Below, in pieces: positions 10,966 to 25,425 of a DNA stretch of 50,335 nt. Every line of letters starts with the position of its first letter. The stretch's first letter is position 1. The position numbers were made by a program, and so were the translations under genes. This DNA comes from a virus. The notes under the pieces are model-generated. The model searched no databases, was not told where the DNA came from, and was given only the letters and a program-made list of their open reading frames with translations. The DNA lies in UHGV virus genome UHGV-1998140; one strand, written 5' to 3'.

Positions 10966-13900
10966 TAGCGTTGTCCTCTTACGGCGCTCCAGATAGCGCC
11001 ACCCGGGCGCATATCCTTCGCCTGCAGCTCACGATATTTTTTCTCGACGAACGACCCAATCTGCTGGCCAAACTCTTCAAACCCTGACGTGCTGTCAGTC
11101 GAGGTTTTGTCGCCAGAAATGGTGATCCAGACTTTTGGCCCTTCAACAGACGCTGAGGGCTGGCCGGATGCTGTCGCCCGGATGCCTGAAAACTCATCCG
11201 CGGCACGCGGCGCAGGTATCATCGGAGCCGCCCCCATTCCGGTGATCCCCTCTGCGCTTGTGCTGAAACCTGTTCCGACAAGACTTTGAATCGTGGTCAG
11301 AAGTGACTGTGTCGCCATATCAATCAGCCCCTTAATGACCGACAGGGCCGGGCCGGAGGACTGTTCACCAATGGCACGGACGCCCAGCGAACCATCAGTC
11401 CCTCGGGTCAGTGGCATAATGGCCTCTGGACCAGCCTCACCAAATACCCCCGCGCCTTTGGCAAAGGCGAAGAGCTGCGGGGTGTCGTGGATCTGGTTGC
11501 TGTAGGCACTTAATGAAGGGGAATCGTAGACGCCACCTTTTGCGTTGAATTCCACCGTGGCTGCAGCGGCTTCATACGAACCGGACGGCGTATTTCCACC
11601 TCCTGCCGCACCTGCACTTCCTCCGATCGCACCGCCAAAAGCAGAACCGACCATGCCAAAAATACTCTGCAGTGCACTGGAAAGCGCGATACGCGTGGCA
11701 ATTTGCGCCAAATCTGAAAGGATTGAAATAGTAAAGCTTTTGAAGCTTCCTTTACCGGTTATGGCAAAGGAAGCGAGGGAGCTTGCCATGCTGTCAAAGG
11801 CACTCGTGGTAAAGCTGGCTATCTGGCTGTTTGCATCCCGCGCATTATCTGTCCAGTTCTTCGCCCCACGCCTGAATCCCGCGCTGTAATCCTGTTCTGC
11901 TCTCAGACGATCCTGCACGCTTTGCTCGGTAATCTGCAGTTCCTGCTGCTTTATCCGCTCCAGATCGGCCAGACGGGCCTGATATTCAGCCGATGTGGTA
12001 TCGATAAAATCTTTCTCCAGCGCAATGCGCCGCTGATTAAAGCGGTTAATAATGGCGTTACGGGCTTCTGCGTCGCTAGCTTCCTGTTCGGAAAGGTTGT
12101 ACTTCTCCAGATTCAGAGCAGCTTCGCGCTGCATAGCCTGAGCCTCTTCAGCCCACTTACGGCTTTCAGCCTGATATTTCAGCGAGGTTTTTCGCAAGAC
12201 GGCTTCTTTTTCAAGCTGAATATTCGACTGCAGTTGCGCCCGGATCTGGTCCTGCATATTCACCAGGCTTTGCTGGCTTTTGGTCAGGTTTTCACCCTTC
12301 AGCCCGGAGAGTTTTTCATTAAAGGCGACCAGCTGTCGTTCGGATTCTGTCAACGTATCAGTGGTCTGCGCCTGTTCTTTCAGTACTGCGTTTCGTTGCA
12401 GTGCCTGCTCCAGCATTCGCTGCCCTTCAGTCTCGCCGCTACCAGACTTTTTGGGTTTATCTTTCTTCGTGGCCTTGTCGTATTCATCATTAATCCCTTT
12501 CAGGATCCGCTGATACTCCTGCGAGCCGGATGCGTAAATGCTGTTATTGAGTTTTTTTATCGCTGCAGCACGCTTTTCTGCTGCGGTACTCCCGGCATCC
12601 ATGTAGCTCTTCAGCCCGGCAGCGTTTTTTATACGGTCACTTTGTGCCTCGGCGTATCCTGCTTTGCTTGTAGCGATAAAGCGGCGTGTCTTTTCGTCAA
12701 ACTCTTTCTGGTCTTTAGTGAGGAGATCGGTCAAAGCAATGGTTTCACCAAGACTTCCGAGTATCCCCCACTCACGCCCAAGATTTTTTAACTTATCAAG
12801 ATAAGTTTCCGCGTGTGCCGCCAGCTCTTTCAGTTTAAAGCTTTCCGCATCAAGAGCTTGTTCCATGATGAGCTGCGTTGCTTTCGCTGTTTCCCCTTTA
12901 TTCGTCAGGCTGATAACCTGTGCGACAATGGATTCATTCAGCGAAATGCCCTGGGCTGTCAGCTGGGCCATCGCATTAAGCGGGTCTCCCTTCAGGGCAG
13001 ATATTTTGCTGACCAGATCCTCAGCGTTCCCACCGGCTTCAGCGTAGGCTGTCGCAATAAATGCAACTTCATGCAGCAATGCACCACTGAAACCACCGTT
13101 TGCCGCAGCGACCACAGCAGAAAGGGAATGTTCTGTACCACCAAGCTGAGCATTGAGGCTTCTCAGTTCAGTGAGAGATAACTGAGCTGACGTTCTCGTT
13201 CCGAGTAGCGCCGCATTCAGTTTTTTTGTTTGCTCCTCGGATTTTTTAAACTCGCTGTAAATCATTGAGCCACCGGCAGCAAGCACCGACAGGCCAATAC
13301 CAACAGGTCCACCCAGCAGACTCATCGCCGAACTAAGCGCCCGGCTGCTGGTCGCTGCAATACGCTGGGTCACAGTAAGCTGGGTATTTGCCGCAGCAGC
13401 AGCTTCTGTTGCTGCTGTTAGTGCCGCCTTTCCACCTGTTTCGGCGGCATCAGCGGTCACAACAACCGCTTTGGCGGCTTTTAATTTTTCAAGCCCGCTG
13501 GCCTCAAGACGGTTCGCTTCAATGATCGCCCGCTCATTCTTCAGGTGTTCATCCTGATAGCTGACATTCAGCCCGTACAGCTTATTAACTTCGGTTTGTT
13601 TCGCGTAATACTCGTCCAGCGCAATCGCCTGCTCACGCTGGGCCTGCGCTGCCGCTATCGTCTTTTCAGCGATAGCAGCTTTATTCAGCGCAGACTGCCT
13701 TTCGGCCTGTGCCGCCGCAATTTGTGCCTTTGCCGCCGACTCCAGTTCGGCAGCTGCCTGACGGGCTGCATCCTGCTGTGTCTTCCAGCCTCCTGCCGAA
13801 CTGTCAAGTCGCCCCTTTAAGGTATGAACGGCGGGGATAAGTGCATTAATTATGCTGCTGCTGGCGACATTACTCCCGGCTGCAACTTCATGAAGCACGA

Positions 13901-21110: not shown

Positions 21111-21289
21111 TATTTCTCCCCGCTATTTTTTGCGCTGGCGGATACCGAGCGCGCGATTAAAAAAGACCAAAGCAGACAGAGTATTCCGCCTGTGATAAAC
21201 CCCGCTGCAGGTAATAAAAGCCAGGCTCCGGTAGAAACCAATAAAGCCCCGGCAAGGCCAATAATGAAACTCAGAATTGTGATTAGCAC
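21110..21289 (-). CDS. Small membrane protein (59 aa, 2 predicted TM helices)
   Basis: GTG start at 21289 with GAGGAAG upstream, overlaps terL stop; its TAA overlaps the portal ATG (TAATG); not in ORF track because <60 aa. Confidence 0.45.
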   Translation of the reverse strand: MLITILSFIIGLAGALLVSTGAWLLLPAAGFITGGILCLLWSFLIARSVSASAKNSGEK

Positions 21290-23004
21290 GCTACGTCTTC
21301 CTCATCATAGATAGATTTGATGACTGCGCTGTTCAACATGGCGCGCCCTATCCCCATCATTAAACCAACCGCACCATCAATCTTGTTTTGTTTCCCCTCC
21401 TTTGTCGGACGGACAATATCGTCGCTGCCCGGCAAATACCGACCTACAACGTTCTGGATGCACCAGTTCATGATGGGATTTCCGTCATGATGGAATCGCC
21501 CCGACGCCAGTGCAGCTTCAATCTCTCTCATGGGGTCGCTCATATGGGTGAAGTTCTGTCTGATTTCGACGGGTTCCAGTCCCTCTTCCTCAAGCAGATG
21601 GCGCAAGGAAGTGGCACCATAAGGATCGATAGGACACTGGGCGATTTTCACGTTCTGACGTAACTGCAGGATGGATTCGAAAATCAGCCGATAATCTACT
21701 TCTGCGCCCTCAGTTGGAATTAAAACGCCCTGTCCCACAAAGGACTGATAACGTTCAGAGGTATGCTTAAGCTTCGGGTCGACAGAATAGATGGTGTCTT
21801 CAGGCACCCAGAACATAGGGCCTACGCAGTAGAAATGGGTAATACCTTCTATATCGCGACGAAAAACAGGAATAACGGCGTTAAGATCGACCTTTGACGC
21901 TAGATCTATTCCCAGCCAGCATTCCTCATCGGCAAAATCAGACAATTTCAGACTCTTGTCAGCAGCAGCCATCCATTTCTGTAAATCGTAAAAGACTGTT
22001 TTTGCGCTAACCCAACGATTAAAATGCTTGGTCAGGATCTTGTTGGTCTGACTGGGGTTCGATATCGCCAGTAACTGTTTTGCGCGAAGAAAGTGCTCTT
22101 TTACCGATATCCCATAATTGGGATTGGCTTTAATGAGCGCTTCCGGCTGAGTCCAGTCATCATCATCATCCAGACCATAGATGATGCCGAAAATGCCCTC
22201 ATTCTCTTCCCCATTGCGGGTTTTGCGCAGGATCTCCACCACCTGTTCCCGCTTCTCATAGCACGGCGATGTAATGTCATAACCGGCTGTCGTGATGATG
22301 AGCGTAATGGGTTGCTCGCGAGCCCCCATCCCTGTCGTCATCGTGGTATACAGGGCATCGGTAATATGTTCGTGGTATTCGTCGATAATGGCGCATGACG
22401 GCGAATCACCGTCACCGGGATCGCCAATCACGGGTGCAAATATGGAGCCATCCGGGCGAGTCATTTTTTTTGCCCAGGGCTTTATAGAAAATTTCTGCCG
22501 CAATGCGGGCAGCTTTTTCACCATCAACAACGCCGGAGCAAACACTTTCCAGGCCTGCTTTTCGGTCGTGGCGCCGCAGTACACTTCCGCACCATGTTCA
22601 CCGTCAGCGCAGAACATATAATTGCCAACGGCAGCGGCAATTGCTGATTTGCCGTTCTTTCTAGGAACTTCGATATAGATCTCAGTGAACCGCCGCAGGC
22701 CACTTTTTTTATTTACCCAGCCAAACGGAACACCCAGGGCAAACTTTTGCCAGGGTTCAAATTCTATCCTGAGTTTTCGGCGGGCCCATTCCCCTGCGGT
22801 ATGTGGCATTTTTTGTGCAAAACGAAGAAATCGCTCTGCCTTATTTTTATCGAACCGGTAAGGCCAGTTCGGATCCTTCGCGCGTTCCAGGTCATCAAGA
22901 TGTCGCTTGCAGGCAAGAATAGTTAACTGACATGCCAGAATCTTCCCGCCAACGATATCCCGTGCATACTGGTTCGCCGCATTGACGTTCGGATATGTGG
23001 CCAT
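21283..23004 (-). CDS. Terminase large subunit
   Basis: 573 aa, Walker A-like PRKNGKS, start overlaps small-subunit stop. Confidence 0.9.
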   Translation of the reverse strand: MATYPNVNAANQYARDIVGGKILACQLTILACKRHLDDLERAKDPNWPYRFDKNKAERFLRFAQKMPHTAGEWARRKLRIEFEPWQKFALGVPFGWVNKKSGLRRFTEIYIEVPRKNGKSAIAAAVGNYMFCADGEHGAEVYCGATTEKQAWKVFAPALLMVKKLPALRQKFSIKPWAKKMTRPDGSIFAPVIGDPGDGDSPSCAIIDEYHEHITDALYTTMTTGMGAREQPITLIITTAGYDITSPCYEKREQVVEILRKTRNGEENEGIFGIIYGLDDDDDWTQPEALIKANPNYGISVKEHFLRAKQLLAISNPSQTNKILTKHFNRWVSAKTVFYDLQKWMAAADKSLKLSDFADEECWLGIDLASKVDLNAVIPVFRRDIEGITHFYCVGPMFWVPEDTIYSVDPKLKHTSERYQSFVGQGVLIPTEGAEVDYRLIFESILQLRQNVKIAQCPIDPYGATSLRHLLEEEGLEPVEIRQNFTHMSDPMREIEAALASGRFHHDGNPIMNWCIQNVVGRYLPGSDDIVRPTKEGKQNKIDGAVGLMMGIGRAMLNSAVIKSIYDEEDVAC

Positions 23005-23438
23005 CAGTCAAACTCATCAAATTCATTCCCGTCATCGTCCTGATCATTTTTGCCGCTGGTCATTCGGATACGGCTGAGCGGATCTAACCCCAGTAGCGAG
23101 CCCAGACGGGCTATCTGGGAAACAGAGTCATTTCTGACGTTTACGGCAGGATGTTTTTTTAACCCTCCCATTTCGCTTTCAGTTGTCAGCCCGTTAGCCA
23201 GTAATTTTTCGGCTTCGAGCATCAGATGGAAGGCGTTGCAGTAAGCCAGAAGTAAAGGGGCATCTTCAAGCTCAAAAACGCCTCTTTCGATCAGGATTTT
23301 ACTTTGAGTCTTCCATATTCTTATAGCCGCCTCCCCCATCAACTCAGCCGGGGGCGCGATTCGGGTCAGTTTACTTTTTTGCCCGGTGGGTAAAACGGGT
23401 TTTCTTCCCCCTCCAGACGATCTAATACCAGCAGCCAT
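23004..23438 (-). CDS. Terminase small subunit (P27-like)
   Basis: 144 aa with acidic C-terminal tail, strong RBS, immediately upstream of terL. Confidence 0.7.
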   Translation of the reverse strand: MAAGIRSSGGGRKPVLPTGQKSKLTRIAPPAELMGEAAIRIWKTQSKILIERGVFELEDAPLLLAYCNAFHLMLEAEKLLANGLTTESEMGGLKKHPAVNVRNDSVSQIARLGSLLGLDPLSRIRMTSGKNDQDDDGNEFDEFD

Positions 23439-23575
23439 AACTCCTCTTTTGATAGGTGAAACCTGCCGGAAAAAAGATCCTTATTTCTGGCGTGTAAAAA
23501 TGTCCTTCAAGCGGCAGTCCCAAAGCGCGAAAGGGGTCAGGGATTTGATCCCCCCTACCCCTGGCGGCAGCTGCC

Positions 23576-23776
23576 TCAGTCGAGGTGGAAGTCGTCATTC
23601 AGGTTGCGCCGACGACCGCTGCTCGCGTTGTGTGGGCAGGCACTCGAGTTATGCCCGGACTGACCGCAATAACTGCAGCGCAAATTGGCGCGACGTGAGG
23701 AACCACCCCACGTTTTCGGGCAGTTCGCGTATGTATGAAGCTGTGAACCGCAATAAGTACAGCGGGTATAACCCAT
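23576..23776 (-). CDS. Small protein with two CCHC zinc-knuckle motifs
   Basis: Two CX2CX4HX4C motifs (CTYCGSQLHTYANC and CSYCGQSGHNSSAC); start placed at third ATG, 4 nt after GGAGGG. Confidence 0.5.
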   Translation of the reverse strand: MGYTRCTYCGSQLHTYANCPKTWGGSSRRANLRCSYCGQSGHNSSACPHNASSGRRRNLNDDFHLD

Positions 23777-23806
23777 CATGCCCTCCATTCATTAAGAATG
23801 CCGTTA

Positions 23807-24247
23807 TCAGGTTTCAGTTGGTGCCGGTGCAACGCCACCATCAGCCTGCAGCACACTTTCCGGCAAACGCTCAATCAGCGGGGCATTCTCAAATACTTTG
23901 AGACCGTACTGGCCAACCCAAGTGCTTTCCTGCCCAACGCTGCCAGAGATGAAGTCCATCACTTCTGCCAACAGCTCTTTAACCAGAGCCTCCGTACGCG
24001 TCCGCCAGTGGCCTTCAATGGCGACCAGGAGAGGATCTGAACCGTTGGCAATACTTTGCTTGCCTACCGAGTAGGTTTTCTTTTTCGCCTTATCGGTCAC
24101 ACACTGCAGCTGTGTCATCAGGGCCAGAACAGCAATCGGAGTTGTATCGCGGACTTCGATAGTCATCGTGGCCAGCTTGTTACCCGATTCAGCATCAGTG
24201 GATGATGCGTAGTACATTGAAATGGTTAAATCATCACGACTGAACAT
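23807..24247 (-). CDS. Hypothetical protein
   Basis: 146-aa ORF in the HNH-terminase cluster, no recognisable motif. Confidence 0.45.
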   Translation of the reverse strand: MFSRDDLTISMYYASSTDAESGNKLATMTIEVRDTTPIAVLALMTQLQCVTDKAKKKTYSVGKQSIANGSDPLLVAIEGHWRTRTEALVKELLAEVMDFISGSVGQESTWVGQYGLKVFENAPLIERLPESVLQADGGVAPAPTET

Positions 24248-24249
24248 GA

Positions 24250-24546
24250 TTAATGGCTCCGGTTACGGTTGCGATTTTTATTGCGGTTACGCTGATGGCG
24301 CGGTGCGGTTTCGGCTGGCAGGTGCTCGCCTTCGAACGCTTGCGCTGGCTCTTGCGGTTGCGGTTGCGGTTGAGCGGGAACCAGTCCCTCGGGAATTTCA
24401 CCACCTACCTCAAACTTGAGATGCGGTTCTTTCCCCAAGAAATGGCTGAAGTTCAGGCCCGATAGTCCTGCATTGAGCATCGAGATCCCCTCGACATCAA
24501 CGGTAACGAGTTGGCCATCAACGTATTCAATTTTTAAATTCTTCAT
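24250..24546 (-). CDS. Hypothetical protein with PQ repeat and basic C-terminal tail
   Basis: ATG at 24546 overlaps HNH stop (ATGA); contains (GCGGTT)3 hexamer repeat encoding PQPQPQ and a C-terminal RNRNKNRNRNR tail. Confidence 0.5.
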   Translation of the reverse strand: MKNLKIEYVDGQLVTVDVEGISMLNAGLSGLNFSHFLGKEPHLKFEVGGEIPEGLVPAQPQPQPQEPAQAFEGEHLPAETAPRHQRNRNKNRNRNRSH

Positions 24547-24905
24547 CGTGTTCTCTCTGTTGCGGTTTTCGTTCTGTGGCACGGCCAGCACAACGATTCC
24601 AGATTGTAATTGTCATCAGTACCGCCGTGGGCTTTAGGAATGATGTGGTCGACGCTGGTAGCTTTTGTGGCGATACCGTGGCGTCGGCAGTTCTGGCAAA
24701 GGTATTTGTCGCGCACGAGTATCTGGGCACGAATGATTTCCCAGGAACGACCGTATCCGCGTTGCTGTCGGGTTTTTCCGGTCTGATAGTTACGCCAGCC
24801 ATCGCCAGTGTGTTGCTGCCGATGGATCTCGCAGTATCTAGTGGCGTCATTCGTCACTGCCGCGCATCCTCTGTGCCGGCAAGGTCGTTTAGCTCGTGGT
24901 GGCAT
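24543..24905 (-). CDS. HNH endonuclease (terminase-associated, HK97 gp74-like position)
   Basis: Cys/His HNH core (DHIIPKAHGG ... CWPCH); start placed at ATG 24905 (MPPRAKRPC) with GAGGA upstream. Confidence 0.8.
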   Translation of the reverse strand: MPPRAKRPCRHRGCAAVTNDATRYCEIHRQQHTGDGWRNYQTGKTRQQRGYGRSWEIIRAQILVRDKYLCQNCRRHGIATKATSVDHIIPKAHGGTDDNYNLESLCWPCHRTKTATERTR

Positions 24906-25053
24906 ACACATCCTCAAGCATGAATTTGGAGAGAGTAAAAGCGGCACTGTCGATGGGGAACTCTGAAACTGGCAACGATGCGAATGACAAATCGTCATAC
25001 GAAATCACCACCAGCTTCCCTCCTACGTATTCAATTTTTAAGCTCTTCATCAT
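24889..25053 (-). CDS. Small ORF, N-terminal paralog of 24250-24546 product
   Basis: 54 aa MMKSLKIEYVGGKLVV... shares its first ~22 residues with MKNLKIEYVDGQLVTV...; weak RBS. Confidence 0.35.
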   Translation of the reverse strand: MMKSLKIEYVGGKLVVISYDDLSFASLPVSEFPIDSAAFTLSKFMLEDVYATTS

Positions 25054-25224
25054 GTGGCATCACGAATACAAAAAGCCCCGCAGATGCGAGGCTACTGGTT
25101 ATACATCAGGGTGTTATTGATAGAGAGCAGCGTGTAAGGTTATCGCTCAGCCGCCTGTGGTGGGACACAGGTAGATATTGTAATTGCAGAGGGATAGCTG
25201 ATTAGCTCTGCTTAAGGAATAGAA

Positions 25225-25425
25225 ATGATTAAAAAGAATATGCACCTTCAAATGGAATCAAATGCCCAAACAATCGACGAATTGAACAAAGAAATTGGGC
25301 AACTGAAATGTGTCGTTGGTTTCTTAATGACTCAATTACCACCGCAATCTAGGCAGGCTGTCATCAATAATCTTGAGGAGTTTGGACTTGATGAGTCAGT
25401 TAAGGAATTTACTCAGTTCCTTTGA
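25225..25425 (+). CDS. Hypothetical small protein
   Basis: 66 aa, AAGGAA RBS 6 nt upstream of ATG, low-GC region. Confidence 0.45.
   Translation: MIKKNMHLQMESNAQTIDELNKEIGQLKCVVGFLMTQLPPQSRQAVINNLEEFGLDESVKEFTQFL

What the first reader, a model, noticed from the sequence alone, without database searches (positions are those of the whole stretch)
23576..23776. Tandem CCHC zinc-knuckle protein next to terminase
The ~66-aa product has two CX2CX4HX4C motifs, the spacing of retroviral nucleocapsid zinc knuckles, and sits between the HNH endonuclease and terS. A GC-rich palindrome GGCAGCTGCC lies immediately downstream. This is an unusual fold in a phage packaging module and may bind nucleic acid near cos.
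Basis: seen in the sequence. Interest (0 to 1): 0.55.

Follow-up and report, generated by a model that had tools for sequence, protein, structure and literature searches.

The report
Phage double zinc-knuckle protein beside cos
A real, strongly conserved 66-residue phage protein with two retrovirus-type CCHC zinc knuckles is the last gene before the DNA-packaging (cos) site; it belongs to a widespread phage family that nobody has studied, and it looks like a free-standing accessory gene rather than a required part of the packaging machine.

Summary
Minus-strand ORF 23576-23776 encodes a 66-aa basic protein with two CX2CX4HX4C motifs, the only two in all six frames of the window. It is the homologue of phiKO2 Gp64 and is identical to Klebsiella oxytoca SAP99547.1.

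- **Real gene:** dN/dS is about 0.05 over 61 distinct nucleotide versions, and all eight metal ligands are invariant in 88 homologues. The rival plus-strand 171-aa ORF carries stop codons in 57 of 61 homologues.
- **Fold:** a family profile matches solved CCHC knuckles (Air2, RSV nucleocapsid, HIV NC, Lin28).
- **Position in the enterobacterial clade:** in 80/80 loci the gene lies between the HNH gene and cos/terS. In 59 of them it abuts the HNH gene.
- **Not packaging-specific:**
  - More distant family members sit in tail, head, lysis and early modules and share no conserved neighbour.
  - 24 of 62 phage contigs that carry the same cos right-arm motif have no such gene nearby.
- **Palindrome:** GGCAGCTGCC is kept in only 2 of 66 homologous regions, so it is not a feature.

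Best reading: a stand-alone accessory zinc-knuckle protein made from the late operon. It probably binds single-stranded nucleic acid or a conserved partner. No function has been tested, and I found no literature or curated family for it. I rate it a new variant of a known fold, of moderate interest.

The parts
23576..23776 (-). Gene for the 66-aa tandem CCHC zinc-knuckle protein (phiKO2 Gp64 homologue, identical to K. oxytoca SAP99547.1). pI 9.1, net charge about +5.
   Evidence: ORF list. 87% nt / 89% aa identity to phiKO2 gp64. dN/dS 0.047, variable sites by codon position 26/21/64. Exact-sequence look-up. pI.
23720..23761 (-). Zinc knuckle 1, CTYCGSQLHTYANC (aa 6-19).
   Evidence: Motif scan. 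C6, C9, H14 and C19 invariant in 88 homologues.
23636..23677 (-). Zinc knuckle 2, CSYCGQSGHNSSAC (aa 34-47).
   Evidence: Motif scan. C34, C37, H42 and C47 invariant. Sub-threshold Pfam zf-CCHC hit at aa 37-53 of the 70-aa reading = aa 33-49 of the 66-aa protein.
23782..23786 (-). Shine-Dalgarno GGAGG, 5 nt upstream of the ATG at 23776.
   Evidence: Read from the sequence. The same start is annotated for phiKO2 gp64.
23566..23575 (.). Present, but not a conserved element.
   Evidence: Kept in 2 of 66 homologous regions. 57 perfect 10-bp palindromes in the window.
23532..23562 (.). Conserved G-rich imperfect inverted repeat (arms 23532-23542 and 23552-23562) in the cos right arm.
   Evidence: Inverted-repeat finder. 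Conservation profile over 66 distinct regions. Also present in E. coli P27-type prophages.
23505..23521 (.). cos core. The conserved block GGACYGCCGCYT is on the minus strand, and the phiKO2 virion right end maps to about 23507/23508.
   Evidence: Alignment to the joined phiKO2 termini. Per-column conservation. The cut position is inferred from the termini of the phiKO2 record, not measured here.
23004..23438 (-). Terminase small subunit (P27/Terminase_4 type).
   Evidence: Pfam PF05119, 3.7e-17. PHROG 83.
21283..23004 (-). Terminase large subunit.
   Evidence: Pfam TerL_ATPase and TerL_nuclease.
23807..24247 (-). 146-aa protein of unknown function (phiKO2 Gp62 homologue), immediately upstream of the CCHC gene.
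   Evidence: PHROG 2473, 1.7e-57, unknown function. 97% identity to phiKO2.
24250..24546 (-). 98-aa protein of unknown function (phiKO2 Gp61 homologue). Its start overlaps the HNH stop.
   Evidence: PHROG 4567, 1.9e-38, match from residue 16 of the 113-aa ORF..
24543..24998 (-). HNH endonuclease of the cos-associated type (the true start is probably near 24911).
   Evidence: Pfam HNH 2.3e-14. PHROG 144 match from residue 27.

Best explanation
This is a genuine late-operon gene, the last cistron before cos. It encodes a small basic protein that folds around two zinc ions, one per CX2CX4HX4C knuckle. It belongs to a large, uncharacterised phage family of stand-alone double knuckles. Each repeat is 28 residues: a knuckle, then CP-K-T-W-G-G-S..R, which the structure model predicts as a short helix. 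The protein ends in a conserved D-x-F-x-x-D tail.

The family behaves as a single-gene accessory cassette that inserts into operons at many genome positions. In Enterobacteriaceae phages it has become fixed between the HNH gene and cos.

Inferred mechanism: like other CCHC knuckles, it binds single-stranded nucleic acid (RNA or ssDNA) through the knuckles and the basic linker. The linker and tail may also dock onto a partner. It is not an obligatory part of cos recognition or cleavage.

Shown here: coding status, ligand conservation, knuckle homology, synteny, and dispensability for this cos type. Inferred only: zinc binding, nucleic-acid binding and biological role.
For: **Real and strongly constrained**
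- dN/dS is 0.047 at dS about 1, and 64 of 66 third codon positions vary.
- Protein identity is 85-100%, while the neighbouring HNH ranges 49-100% and TerL 32-100%.

**Knuckle identity**
- All eight ligands are invariant in 88 sequences.
- The profile hits PDB Air2, RSV NC (aligned over both knuckles), TUT4, HIV NC and Lin28.
- Of 88 members, 51 hit AIR2-like_ZnK4, 18 hit zf-CCHC_4 and 16 hit Lin28 ZnK2.
- The protein is basic, pI 9.1.

**Stand-alone accessory behaviour**
- An exhaustive search gives more than 100 clusters of 58-75-aa two-knuckle proteins.
- Their contexts differ:
  - between gpU and tail X;
  - just upstream of head-completion genes;
  - after portal;
  - near a DNA ligase;
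  - upstream of TerL.
- A Pfam census of the neighbours shows no dominant family.
- Among 375 neighbour proteins from 68 loci, the largest homologous cluster covers 4 loci.

**Not required for this cos**
- The cos right-arm motif occurs in 62 non-redundant viral contigs, and 24 of them have no knuckle gene within up to 3 kb.
- A few contigs carry decayed copies.
- E. coli P27-type prophages share the 55-nt cos segment and have no CCHC gene.

**Precedent:** Air2 knuckles both bind RNA and dock onto a protein through a linker that follows the knuckle (PMC3384339).
Against: - No direct evidence here for zinc binding, for nucleic-acid binding or for expression.
- The conserved aromatic residue sits at Cys+2 (C-T-Y-C). 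In retroviral NC and Lin28 the base-stacking aromatic is at Cys+1 (my own recollection of those sequences), so NC-like base recognition is not assured.
- The window protein scores below the Pfam zf-CCHC gathering threshold (16.6 against 20.8 bits).
- The perfect positional fixation in the enterobacterial clade (80/80), often with HNH stop and CCHC start overlapping, is more than a random accessory gene would be expected to show. It leaves room for a packaging-linked role in this clade.
Confidence: 0.45

Rival explanations
1. Packaging accessory factor. The protein works with the cos-associated HNH endonuclease and terminase, as a small specificity or adaptor subunit that binds the cos right arm or the single-stranded cohesive end. 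This is the role Xu and Gupta speculated for the 'ZR domain protein adjacent to the HNHE'.
For: - In 80/80 enterobacterial-clade loci the gene lies between HNH and cos/terS, across three very different TerL classes. In 59 of them the gene abuts the HNH gene.
- The protein and the adjoining cos right arm are both conserved while terS and terL vary.
- Small zinc proteins recur next to cos-linked HNH genes in Gram-positive phages. In phi105 one is the last gene before cos (PMC3592412).
Against: - The same cos motif occurs without the gene in 24 of 62 contigs and in E. coli prophages.
- By my recollection, HK97 has its HNH directly at cos with no such gene.
- Relatives at 50-65% identity occur in Mu-like, P2-like tail, lysis and early contexts. 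HNH appears near only 3 of 68 loci.
- The protein stays 85-100% identical while its supposed partners diverge to 49% (HNH) and 32% (TerL). That argues against co-evolving contacts.
- The phi105 zinc protein is not homologous.
Confidence: 0.2
2. Protein-binding effector. The knuckles are a rigid zinc scaffold, and the conserved CPKTW linker and the C-terminal D-x-F-x-x-D tail dock onto a highly conserved host protein or defence component. The protein would then be a host take-over or counter-defence factor rather than a nucleic-acid binder.
For: - Single-gene cassette behaviour, with variable insertion sites in phage genomes.
- Two loci have Tad2-like anti-defence genes among the neighbours.
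- Extreme purifying selection that is independent of the neighbouring phage genes suggests an invariant, non-phage target.
- The C-terminal Asp is nearly invariant and the tail motif is conserved.
- The Air2 linker after ZnK4, together with ZnK5, binds Trf4.
Against: - No match to any defence-related model in PADLOC.
- No literature.
- The gene is usually translationally coupled inside late structural operons. Known take-over or counter-defence genes are, by my recollection, typically expressed early.
- No partner has been identified.
Confidence: 0.2
3. Small zinc-finger regulator of late gene expression, analogous to Mu Com (a translational activator that binds mRNA) or P2 Ogr. It would act on the mRNA or promoter of adjacent genes such as terS.
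For: - Similar size and a zinc-dependent fold.
- RNA binding is the commonest role of CCHC knuckles.
- It sits directly upstream of the terminase genes in this clade.
Against: - No homology to Com or Ogr families appears in the Pfam scans.
- Family members have unrelated downstream genes, so there is no common regulatory target.
- No conserved RNA structure or operator was identified. Apart from the cos blocks, the downstream non-coding DNA is not conserved.
Confidence: 0.07
4. Not a gene. The conservation would reflect cis-acting cos DNA or the plus-strand 171-aa ORF 23386-23901.
For: - The ORF is short.
- It is unannotated in several phage and plasmid records.
- It lies within 70 bp of cos.
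Against: - dN/dS is 0.047 with saturated synonymous change, so the DNA itself is not conserved.
- The metal ligands are invariant in relatives down to about 33% identity that live in unrelated genomes.
- The plus-strand ORF is broken by stop codons in 57 of 61 homologues, and it runs across cos and the terS start.
Confidence: 0.01

Closest known systems
CCHC zinc knuckle (Pfam clan of zf-CCHC PF00098, including AIR2-like_ZnK4 PF21759 and the Lin28 second knuckle PF21890)
   Same: - Exact CX2CX4HX4C spacing, with Gly after the second Cys and Pro after the last Cys.
- The profile matches solved knuckles.
- Of 88 family members, 51 hit PF21759.
- The match to Air2 ZnK4 extends into the CP-x-[IT]-W segment that follows the knuckle.
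   Different: - The window protein is below the PF00098 gathering score.
- The conserved aromatic residue is at Cys+2, not Cys+1.
- It has a fixed 28-residue repeat with a predicted helix after each knuckle, and a conserved acidic/aromatic C-terminal tail.
- It is a free-standing 60-75-aa phage protein, not a module of a larger eukaryotic RNA-processing protein.
Retroviral nucleocapsid proteins (HIV-1 NCp7, RSV NC)
   Same: - Two CCHC knuckles in a small basic protein of about 55-66 aa.
- The family profile aligns to RSV NC (2ihx) over both knuckles, residues 6-55, at E = 7e-5.
   Different: - It is not cleaved from a Gag polyprotein.
- By my recollection, the inter-knuckle linker (14 aa) is longer than in HIV-1 NC and is predicted to be helical.
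- The aromatic position differs.
- It comes from a dsDNA tailed phage. No evidence of genome coating or chaperone activity.
Klebsiella phage phiKO2 Gp64 (YP_006644.1) and its Enterobacteriaceae homologues
   Same: - True orthologue: 89% aa identity.
- Same position as the last gene at the right end, about 70 bp from cos.
   Different: Nothing of substance. Gp64 carries no name or function in the record, so the comparison gives no mechanism.
'ZR domain proteins' next to cos-associated HNH endonucleases (Xu and Gupta 2013, PMC3592412), for example phi105 PHI105_00260
   Same: A small Cys-rich protein encoded beside the HNH gene and just before cos/terS. Its function is also untested, and a specificity-subunit or regulator role was proposed.
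   Different: - No homology (hhalign probability 0.3%).
- The phi105 protein has a single C...CxxC element plus a long helix, not CCHC knuckles.
- The resemblance is positional only.
Bacterial membrane proteins with five tandem CCHC knuckles (for example P0056, P0093, P0146)
   Same: - Same knuckle and the same repeat period of about 28 residues.
- They pass the Pfam zf-CCHC threshold.
- They show that this knuckle type is native to bacteria.
   Different: They are 220-430 aa long, with hydrophobic (probably membrane-spanning) segments and SH3_3, YARHG or LprI domains. They are cellular proteins, not phage proteins, and are also uncharacterised.

Membership tests
CCHC zinc knuckle (zf-CCHC clan) | CX2CX4HX4C ligand spacing | tested here: met
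   Two exact motifs at aa 6-19 and 34-47, the only two in six frames of the window.
CCHC zinc knuckle (zf-CCHC clan) | Ligands conserved across homologues | tested here: met
   C6, C9, H14, C19, C34, C37, H42 and C47 are invariant in 88 sequences down to about 33% identity.
CCHC zinc knuckle (zf-CCHC clan) | Significant sequence-profile similarity to curated or solved knuckles | tested here: met
   - The family profile hits PDB Air2 at 3.9e-5 and RSV NC at 7e-5.
- Of 88 members, 51 hit PF21759 (best 1e-7) and 8 hit PF00098 (best 2e-7).
CCHC zinc knuckle (zf-CCHC clan) | The window protein itself passes the Pfam PF00098 gathering score | tested here: not met
   16.6 bits against a cut-off of 20.8. 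Membership rests on the family profile, not on the single sequence.
CCHC zinc knuckle (zf-CCHC clan) | Knuckle fold seen in a structure | tested here: inconclusive
   - AF2 with 88 sequences gives pLDDT 75 and pTM 0.54.
- The best Foldseek hit is the CCHC fingers of T. brucei RNase D, at E = 0.5.
CCHC zinc knuckle (zf-CCHC clan) | Binds one Zn2+ per knuckle | not testable with these tools
   Needs metal analysis of purified protein.
Retroviral nucleocapsid-like nucleic-acid chaperone | Two knuckles in a small basic protein | tested here: met
   66 aa, pI 9.1, two knuckles. Aligned to RSV NC over both knuckles.
Retroviral nucleocapsid-like nucleic-acid chaperone | Base-stacking aromatic residue at Cys+1 of each knuckle | tested here: not met
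   The family consensus is C-[TS]-Y-C, with the aromatic at Cys+2. The Cys+1 rule for NC and Lin28 is from my own knowledge.
Retroviral nucleocapsid-like nucleic-acid chaperone | Derived from a Gag polyprotein, and binds or anneals ssRNA or ssDNA | not testable with these tools
   It is a free-standing ORF in a dsDNA phage. Binding was not assayed.
HNH-terminase cos-cleavage machinery (HK97 gp74 type), as an accessory subunit | Encoded beside the HNH gene and cos/terS | tested here: met
   80/80 enterobacterial-clade loci. In 59 the gene abuts the HNH gene. In the window two ORFs intervene.
HNH-terminase cos-cleavage machinery (HK97 gp74 type), as an accessory subunit | Present wherever this cos type is used | tested here: not met
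   - 24 of 62 non-redundant contigs with the cos right-arm motif have no knuckle gene within up to 3 kb.
- E. coli P27-type prophages have the cos segment but no CCHC gene.
HNH-terminase cos-cleavage machinery (HK97 gp74 type), as an accessory subunit | Linkage to HNH or terminase across the whole protein family | tested here: not met
   HNH is near only 3 of 68 distant loci, and no conserved neighbour cluster exists.
HNH-terminase cos-cleavage machinery (HK97 gp74 type), as an accessory subunit | Physical or functional interaction with HNH, TerS, TerL or cos DNA | not testable with these tools
   Needs biochemistry or genetics.
Xu and Gupta 'ZR domain protein' adjacent to the HNH endonuclease | Homology to a described example (phi105 PHI105_00260) | tested here: not met
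   hhalign probability 0.3%. The resemblance is positional only.

The most novel reading that the evidence does not exclude
Tailed phages of Proteobacteria carry a widespread family of nucleocapsid-like double zinc knuckles that has never been studied. These would act as single-stranded nucleic-acid binders or chaperones. In the phiKO2/P27-type clade the protein would act at the cohesive end together with the HNH-terminase complex, or it would neutralise a conserved host nucleic-acid-based defence. This would be the first functional CCHC knuckle described in a bacteriophage. Together with the five-knuckle bacterial membrane proteins, it would show that this 'eukaryotic/retroviral' module has a prokaryotic repertoire of its own.
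Probability: 0.3. Interest if true: 0.65.

Novelty: new variant of a known kind. Interest (0 to 1): 0.45.

Why it matters
CCHC knuckles are textbook modules of retroviral nucleocapsids and of eukaryotic RNA-processing factors. They are hardly known in bacteria or phages.

This work defines a large phage family, with more than 100 clusters at 50% identity across alpha-, beta- and gamma-proteobacterial phages and prophages. The family has a distinctive 28-residue repeat and a conserved tail, and it is under very strong purifying selection. It has no curated family, no name beyond 'hypothetical' or an automatic 'CCHC-type domain-containing protein', and no literature.

It is common in clinically relevant Klebsiella and Enterobacter phage-plasmids and prophages, where it is often not annotated at all.

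If it binds nucleic acid or a conserved host target, it would be a compact new phage effector. If it helps HNH-terminase, it would add a component to a well-studied packaging system.

Tried and rejected
- **Curated libraries:** Pfam, PHROGs, NCBIfam and PADLOC have no family above threshold for the window protein.
- **Literature:** searches for phage or prophage CCHC knuckles found nothing relevant. The phiKO2 genome paper is not in the held library, so the cos overhang type could not be checked.
- **72-sequence alignment:** too diverse for the locus scan, so I split it into subfamilies.
- **Two-strand greedy gene calling:** it picked antisense shadow ORFs in GC-rich loci, so I redid it on the same strand only.
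- **Rejected, conservation is cos DNA rather than protein:** synonymous sites are saturated.
- **Rejected, the plus-strand 171-aa ORF:** stop codons in 57 of 61 homologues.
- **Rejected, the palindrome as terminator or binding site:** it has no loop and is not conserved. The terminator scan finds nothing at that position.
- **Rejected, homology with the phi105 'ZR protein':**
- **Not done:** a search for HNH-CCHC fusion proteins.

Full report
**1. What is in the sequence**

On the minus strand, 23576-23776 encodes MGYTRCTYCGSQLHTYANCPKTWGGSSRRANLRCSYCGQSGHNSSACPHNASSGRRRNLNDDFHLD.
- GGAGG at 23782-23786 lies 5 nt upstream of the ATG at 23776. The upstream ATG at 23788 falls inside this ribosome-binding site, so the 66-aa reading is the right one. 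It is also the reading annotated for phiKO2 gp64.
- The two CX2CX4HX4C motifs (aa 6-19 and 34-47) are the only two in any frame of the 50-kb window.
- The protein is basic: pI 9.1, 7 Arg and 1 Lys against 3 Asp.

Gene order on the minus strand:
- HNH endonuclease, 24543-24998
- a 98-aa ORF, 24250-24546
- a 146-aa ORF, 23807-24247
- the CCHC gene
- about 140 bp of non-coding DNA
- terS, 23004-23438
- terL, 21283-23004
- portal

No sigma-70-type promoter-like site was found in 23000-25300. A terminator-like hairpin lies upstream of HNH at 25093-25074. I infer that the gene is read as part of the late transcript.

**2. Identity and the cos site**

- The region is 87% identical in DNA to the right end of Klebsiella phage phiKO2. 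There the homologue is Gp64, the last gene of the linear virion map, 70 bp from the end.
- Joining the two phiKO2 termini and aligning them to the window places the cos cut at about 23507. This is an inference from the record's ends.
- The exact protein is K. oxytoca SAP99547.1, 'Uncharacterised protein', seen on 30 contigs.
- Its 90% clusters include Klebsiella, Enterobacter, Cronobacter, Leclercia, Citrobacter, Salmonella and Raoultella. All are named 'hypothetical', apart from a few UniRef entries auto-named 'CCHC-type domain-containing protein'.
- 89 Klebsiella/Citrobacter plasmid records carry the segment, mostly with no gene listed there (the plasmid gene table is incomplete).
- Among 50,697 phage records only 10 encode a relative: eight Klebsiella records and two of Pseudomonas phage RSP.

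**3. Is it a real gene?**

Across 82 copies (61 distinct nucleotide sequences, all 201 nt):
- Variable sites by codon position number 26, 21 and 64.
- Mean dN is 0.049 against mean dS of 1.05, a ratio of 0.047.

The DNA has therefore diverged to saturation at silent sites while the protein is held at 85-100% identity. This rules out conservation due to cis-acting cos DNA.

**4. What kind of protein?**

- The word-indexed search found 29 clusters.
- An exhaustive profile search found 646 hits at E <= 1e-3. More than 100 are 58-75-aa proteins matched end to end. The rest are mostly long multi-knuckle proteins.
- In an 88-sequence alignment reaching down to about 33% identity, all eight ligands and G25 are invariant. 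G10, T22, R29, G38 and the C-terminal Asp are at least 90% conserved.
- The consensus is MRCTYCGSxxHTxxxCPKTWxGSxxRxxLRCxYCGxxxHNxxACPK...D. In one subfamily the second repeat repeats the first almost literally (…CPKTWxGNAARAW), which indicates an internal duplication with a 28-residue period.
- The family profile matches solved knuckles:
  - Air2 at 3.9e-5, and there the match runs on into the CP-x-I-W segment.
  - RSV nucleocapsid at 7e-5, aligned over both knuckles.
  - TUT4, HIV-1 NC and Lin28.
- Of 88 members, 51 hit Pfam AIR2-like_ZnK4, 18 hit zf-CCHC_4, 16 hit the Lin28 second knuckle and 8 hit PF00098. The window protein alone is below the PF00098 threshold.
- AF2 with the deep alignment gives pLDDT 75 and pTM 0.54, with a helix at residues 23-31. 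Fold searches were uninformative.

The 'retroviral spacing' is therefore true homology to the CCHC-knuckle clan and not a coincidence. Two differences stand out. The conserved aromatic is at Cys+2 rather than Cys+1. Each knuckle also carries a conserved extension.

**5. Is it part of the packaging module?**

Within the enterobacterial clade the answer looks like yes.
- In 80/80 IMG/VR loci the gene lies downstream of an HNH gene.
- In 59 of them it abuts the HNH gene.
- In 19, as here, the p146 ORF lies between them.
- In 71 a TerL gene follows within 0.6-1.4 kb.
- The neighbours vary widely: HNH 49-100% identity, and TerL in three classes at about 33%, 56-60% and 100%.

Three tests speak against a dedicated packaging role.
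- **(a) Distant members sit elsewhere.**
  - Contexts found:
    - between gpU and tail protein X in an Aurantimonas myovirus-like tail cluster;
    - just upstream of head-completion genes;
    - right after portal and before a cold-shock-domain gene;
    - among small early genes near a DNA ligase;
    - upstream of a different TerL.
  - A Pfam census of the two genes on each side of 68 non-redundant loci shows no dominant family: lysozymes 6, portal 5, Mu F 4, head completion 4, HNH 3, integrase 2, Tad2-like 2, and so on.
  - All-against-all comparison of 375 neighbour proteins gives no homologous cluster covering more than 4 loci.
  - About 50 of the 68 genes start within a few bases of the upstream stop codon, so they are embedded in operons.
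- **(b) The same cos right arm is used without the gene.** The motif AGGGSGGRTCAAA-N21-24-GGACYGCCGC occurs in 62 non-redundant viral contigs that have enough upstream sequence.
  - 33 have an intact double-knuckle gene within 450 nt.
  - 5 have a decayed or more distant copy.
  - 24 have none within up to 3 kb.
  - Six E. coli genomes carry the 55-nt segment next to a P27-type terS. In the one I examined (L227) there is no CCHC motif in any frame.
- **(c) The protein is far more conserved than HNH or TerL.** That is not what co-evolving subunits would show.

**6. The palindrome**

- GGCAGCTGCC at 23566-23575 is kept in 2 of 66 distinct homologous regions.
- It is one of 57 perfect 10-bp palindromes in the window.
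- What is conserved downstream is a G-rich imperfect inverted repeat (23532-23562) and the block GGACYGCCGCYT (23509-23520) at the inferred cut. These belong to cos, not to the gene.

**7. Mechanism**

- Shown: coding status, ligand conservation, knuckle homology, synteny, and dispensability for this cos type.
- Inferred: two Zn2+ ions, and binding of single-stranded nucleic acid by the knuckles and the basic linker. This is the usual activity of the fold. For example, Air2 ZnK2-4 bind RNA (PMC3384339).
- The conserved CPKTW linker and the D-x-F-x-x-D tail could dock onto a partner. In Air2 the linker after ZnK4 becomes helical when it binds Trf4.

I rank the readings as follows:
- stand-alone accessory nucleic-acid binder, 0.45
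- accessory of HNH-terminase at cos, 0.20
- protein-binding host or defence effector, 0.20
- Com/Ogr-like regulator, 0.07
- not a gene, 0.01

The packaging idea has a precedent. Xu and Gupta (PMC3592412) noted small zinc proteins beside cos-linked HNH genes and proposed a specificity-subunit or regulator role, which they did not test. Their phi105 example is also the last gene before cos, but it is not homologous.

**8. Novelty and verdict**

- The fold is known and the gene is catalogued as hypothetical.
- The family has not been described: it is a free-standing phage protein with two repeats, a 28-residue period and a conserved tail.
- No curated model covers it, and I found no paper on it.
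- I classify it as a new variant of a known kind, with interest 0.45.
Its interpretation is partly supported.

Noticed in passing
P0056, P0093, P0103, P0137, P0146, P0153, P0157, P0166, P0171: Bacterial proteins of 220-430 aa with four or five tandem CCHC knuckles at the N-terminus, most with a period of about 22-28 residues, often the same 28-residue period as the phage family. Hydrophobic segments follow, then SH3_3, YARHG or LprI domains. They pass the Pfam zf-CCHC threshold and appear to be uncharacterised.
   Followed up: partly
window 23505-23562; L227 3001-3055: A 55-nt cos right-arm segment, made of a G-rich imperfect inverted repeat plus the GGACYGCCGC core. It is shared at 91% identity with E. 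coli prophages that have a P27-type terS and no CCHC gene. In IMG/VR the motif occurs about equally often with and without the gene.
   Followed up: yes
L259, L266, L295: Apparent decayed copies of the CCHC gene upstream of the cos motif: one knuckle is lost or the ORF is truncated after knuckle 1. This suggests the gene is dispensable in some lineages.
   Followed up: partly
L090 2215-2685: A family member lies directly upstream of a cold-shock-domain gene, just after portal. Together the two genes carry the domain content of eukaryotic Lin28 (a CSD plus two CCHC knuckles), split over two genes. This may be coincidence.
   Followed up: no
window 13749-13758, 23566-23575, 30705-30714: GGCAGCTGCC occurs three times in the window against 0.13 expected from dinucleotide shuffles. 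The other two copies appear to lie inside long ORFs, so the excess probably reflects favoured codons (CAG-CTG, or GCA-GCT-GCC) rather than a site.
   Followed up: partly
window 24889-25053 (-) and 24250-24546 (-): Two small ORFs flanking the HNH gene share an N-terminal MK(S/N)LKIEYV(G/D)G(K/Q)LV segment: 12 of 22 residues identical, E = 6e-7 for the single comparison. The downstream one (the phiKO2 Gp61 homologue) ends in low-complexity PQPQPQ and NRNKNRNRNRN runs.
   Followed up: partly
KY271402.1, MK803322.1 (Pseudomonas phage RSP, between RSP_0063 and RSP_0061) and most PLSDB Klebsiella plasmid hits: The double-knuckle gene has no listed feature in several deposited phage records, and none in most of the plasmid hits (where the gene table is incomplete). 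The family is probably under-counted in annotation-based surveys.
   Followed up: no
window 25074-25093 (-): An intrinsic-terminator-like hairpin with a T-run, just upstream of the HNH gene. By my reading, the HNH-to-terminase genes would then need read-through, for example by Q antitermination, to be expressed.
   Followed up: no
L083 5001-5485: In an Aurantimonas P2-like tail cluster, the knuckle gene is inserted between gpU and a tail-protein-X-like gene, overlapping the latter by 4 nt. This is an unusual place for a non-structural gene.
   Followed up: no
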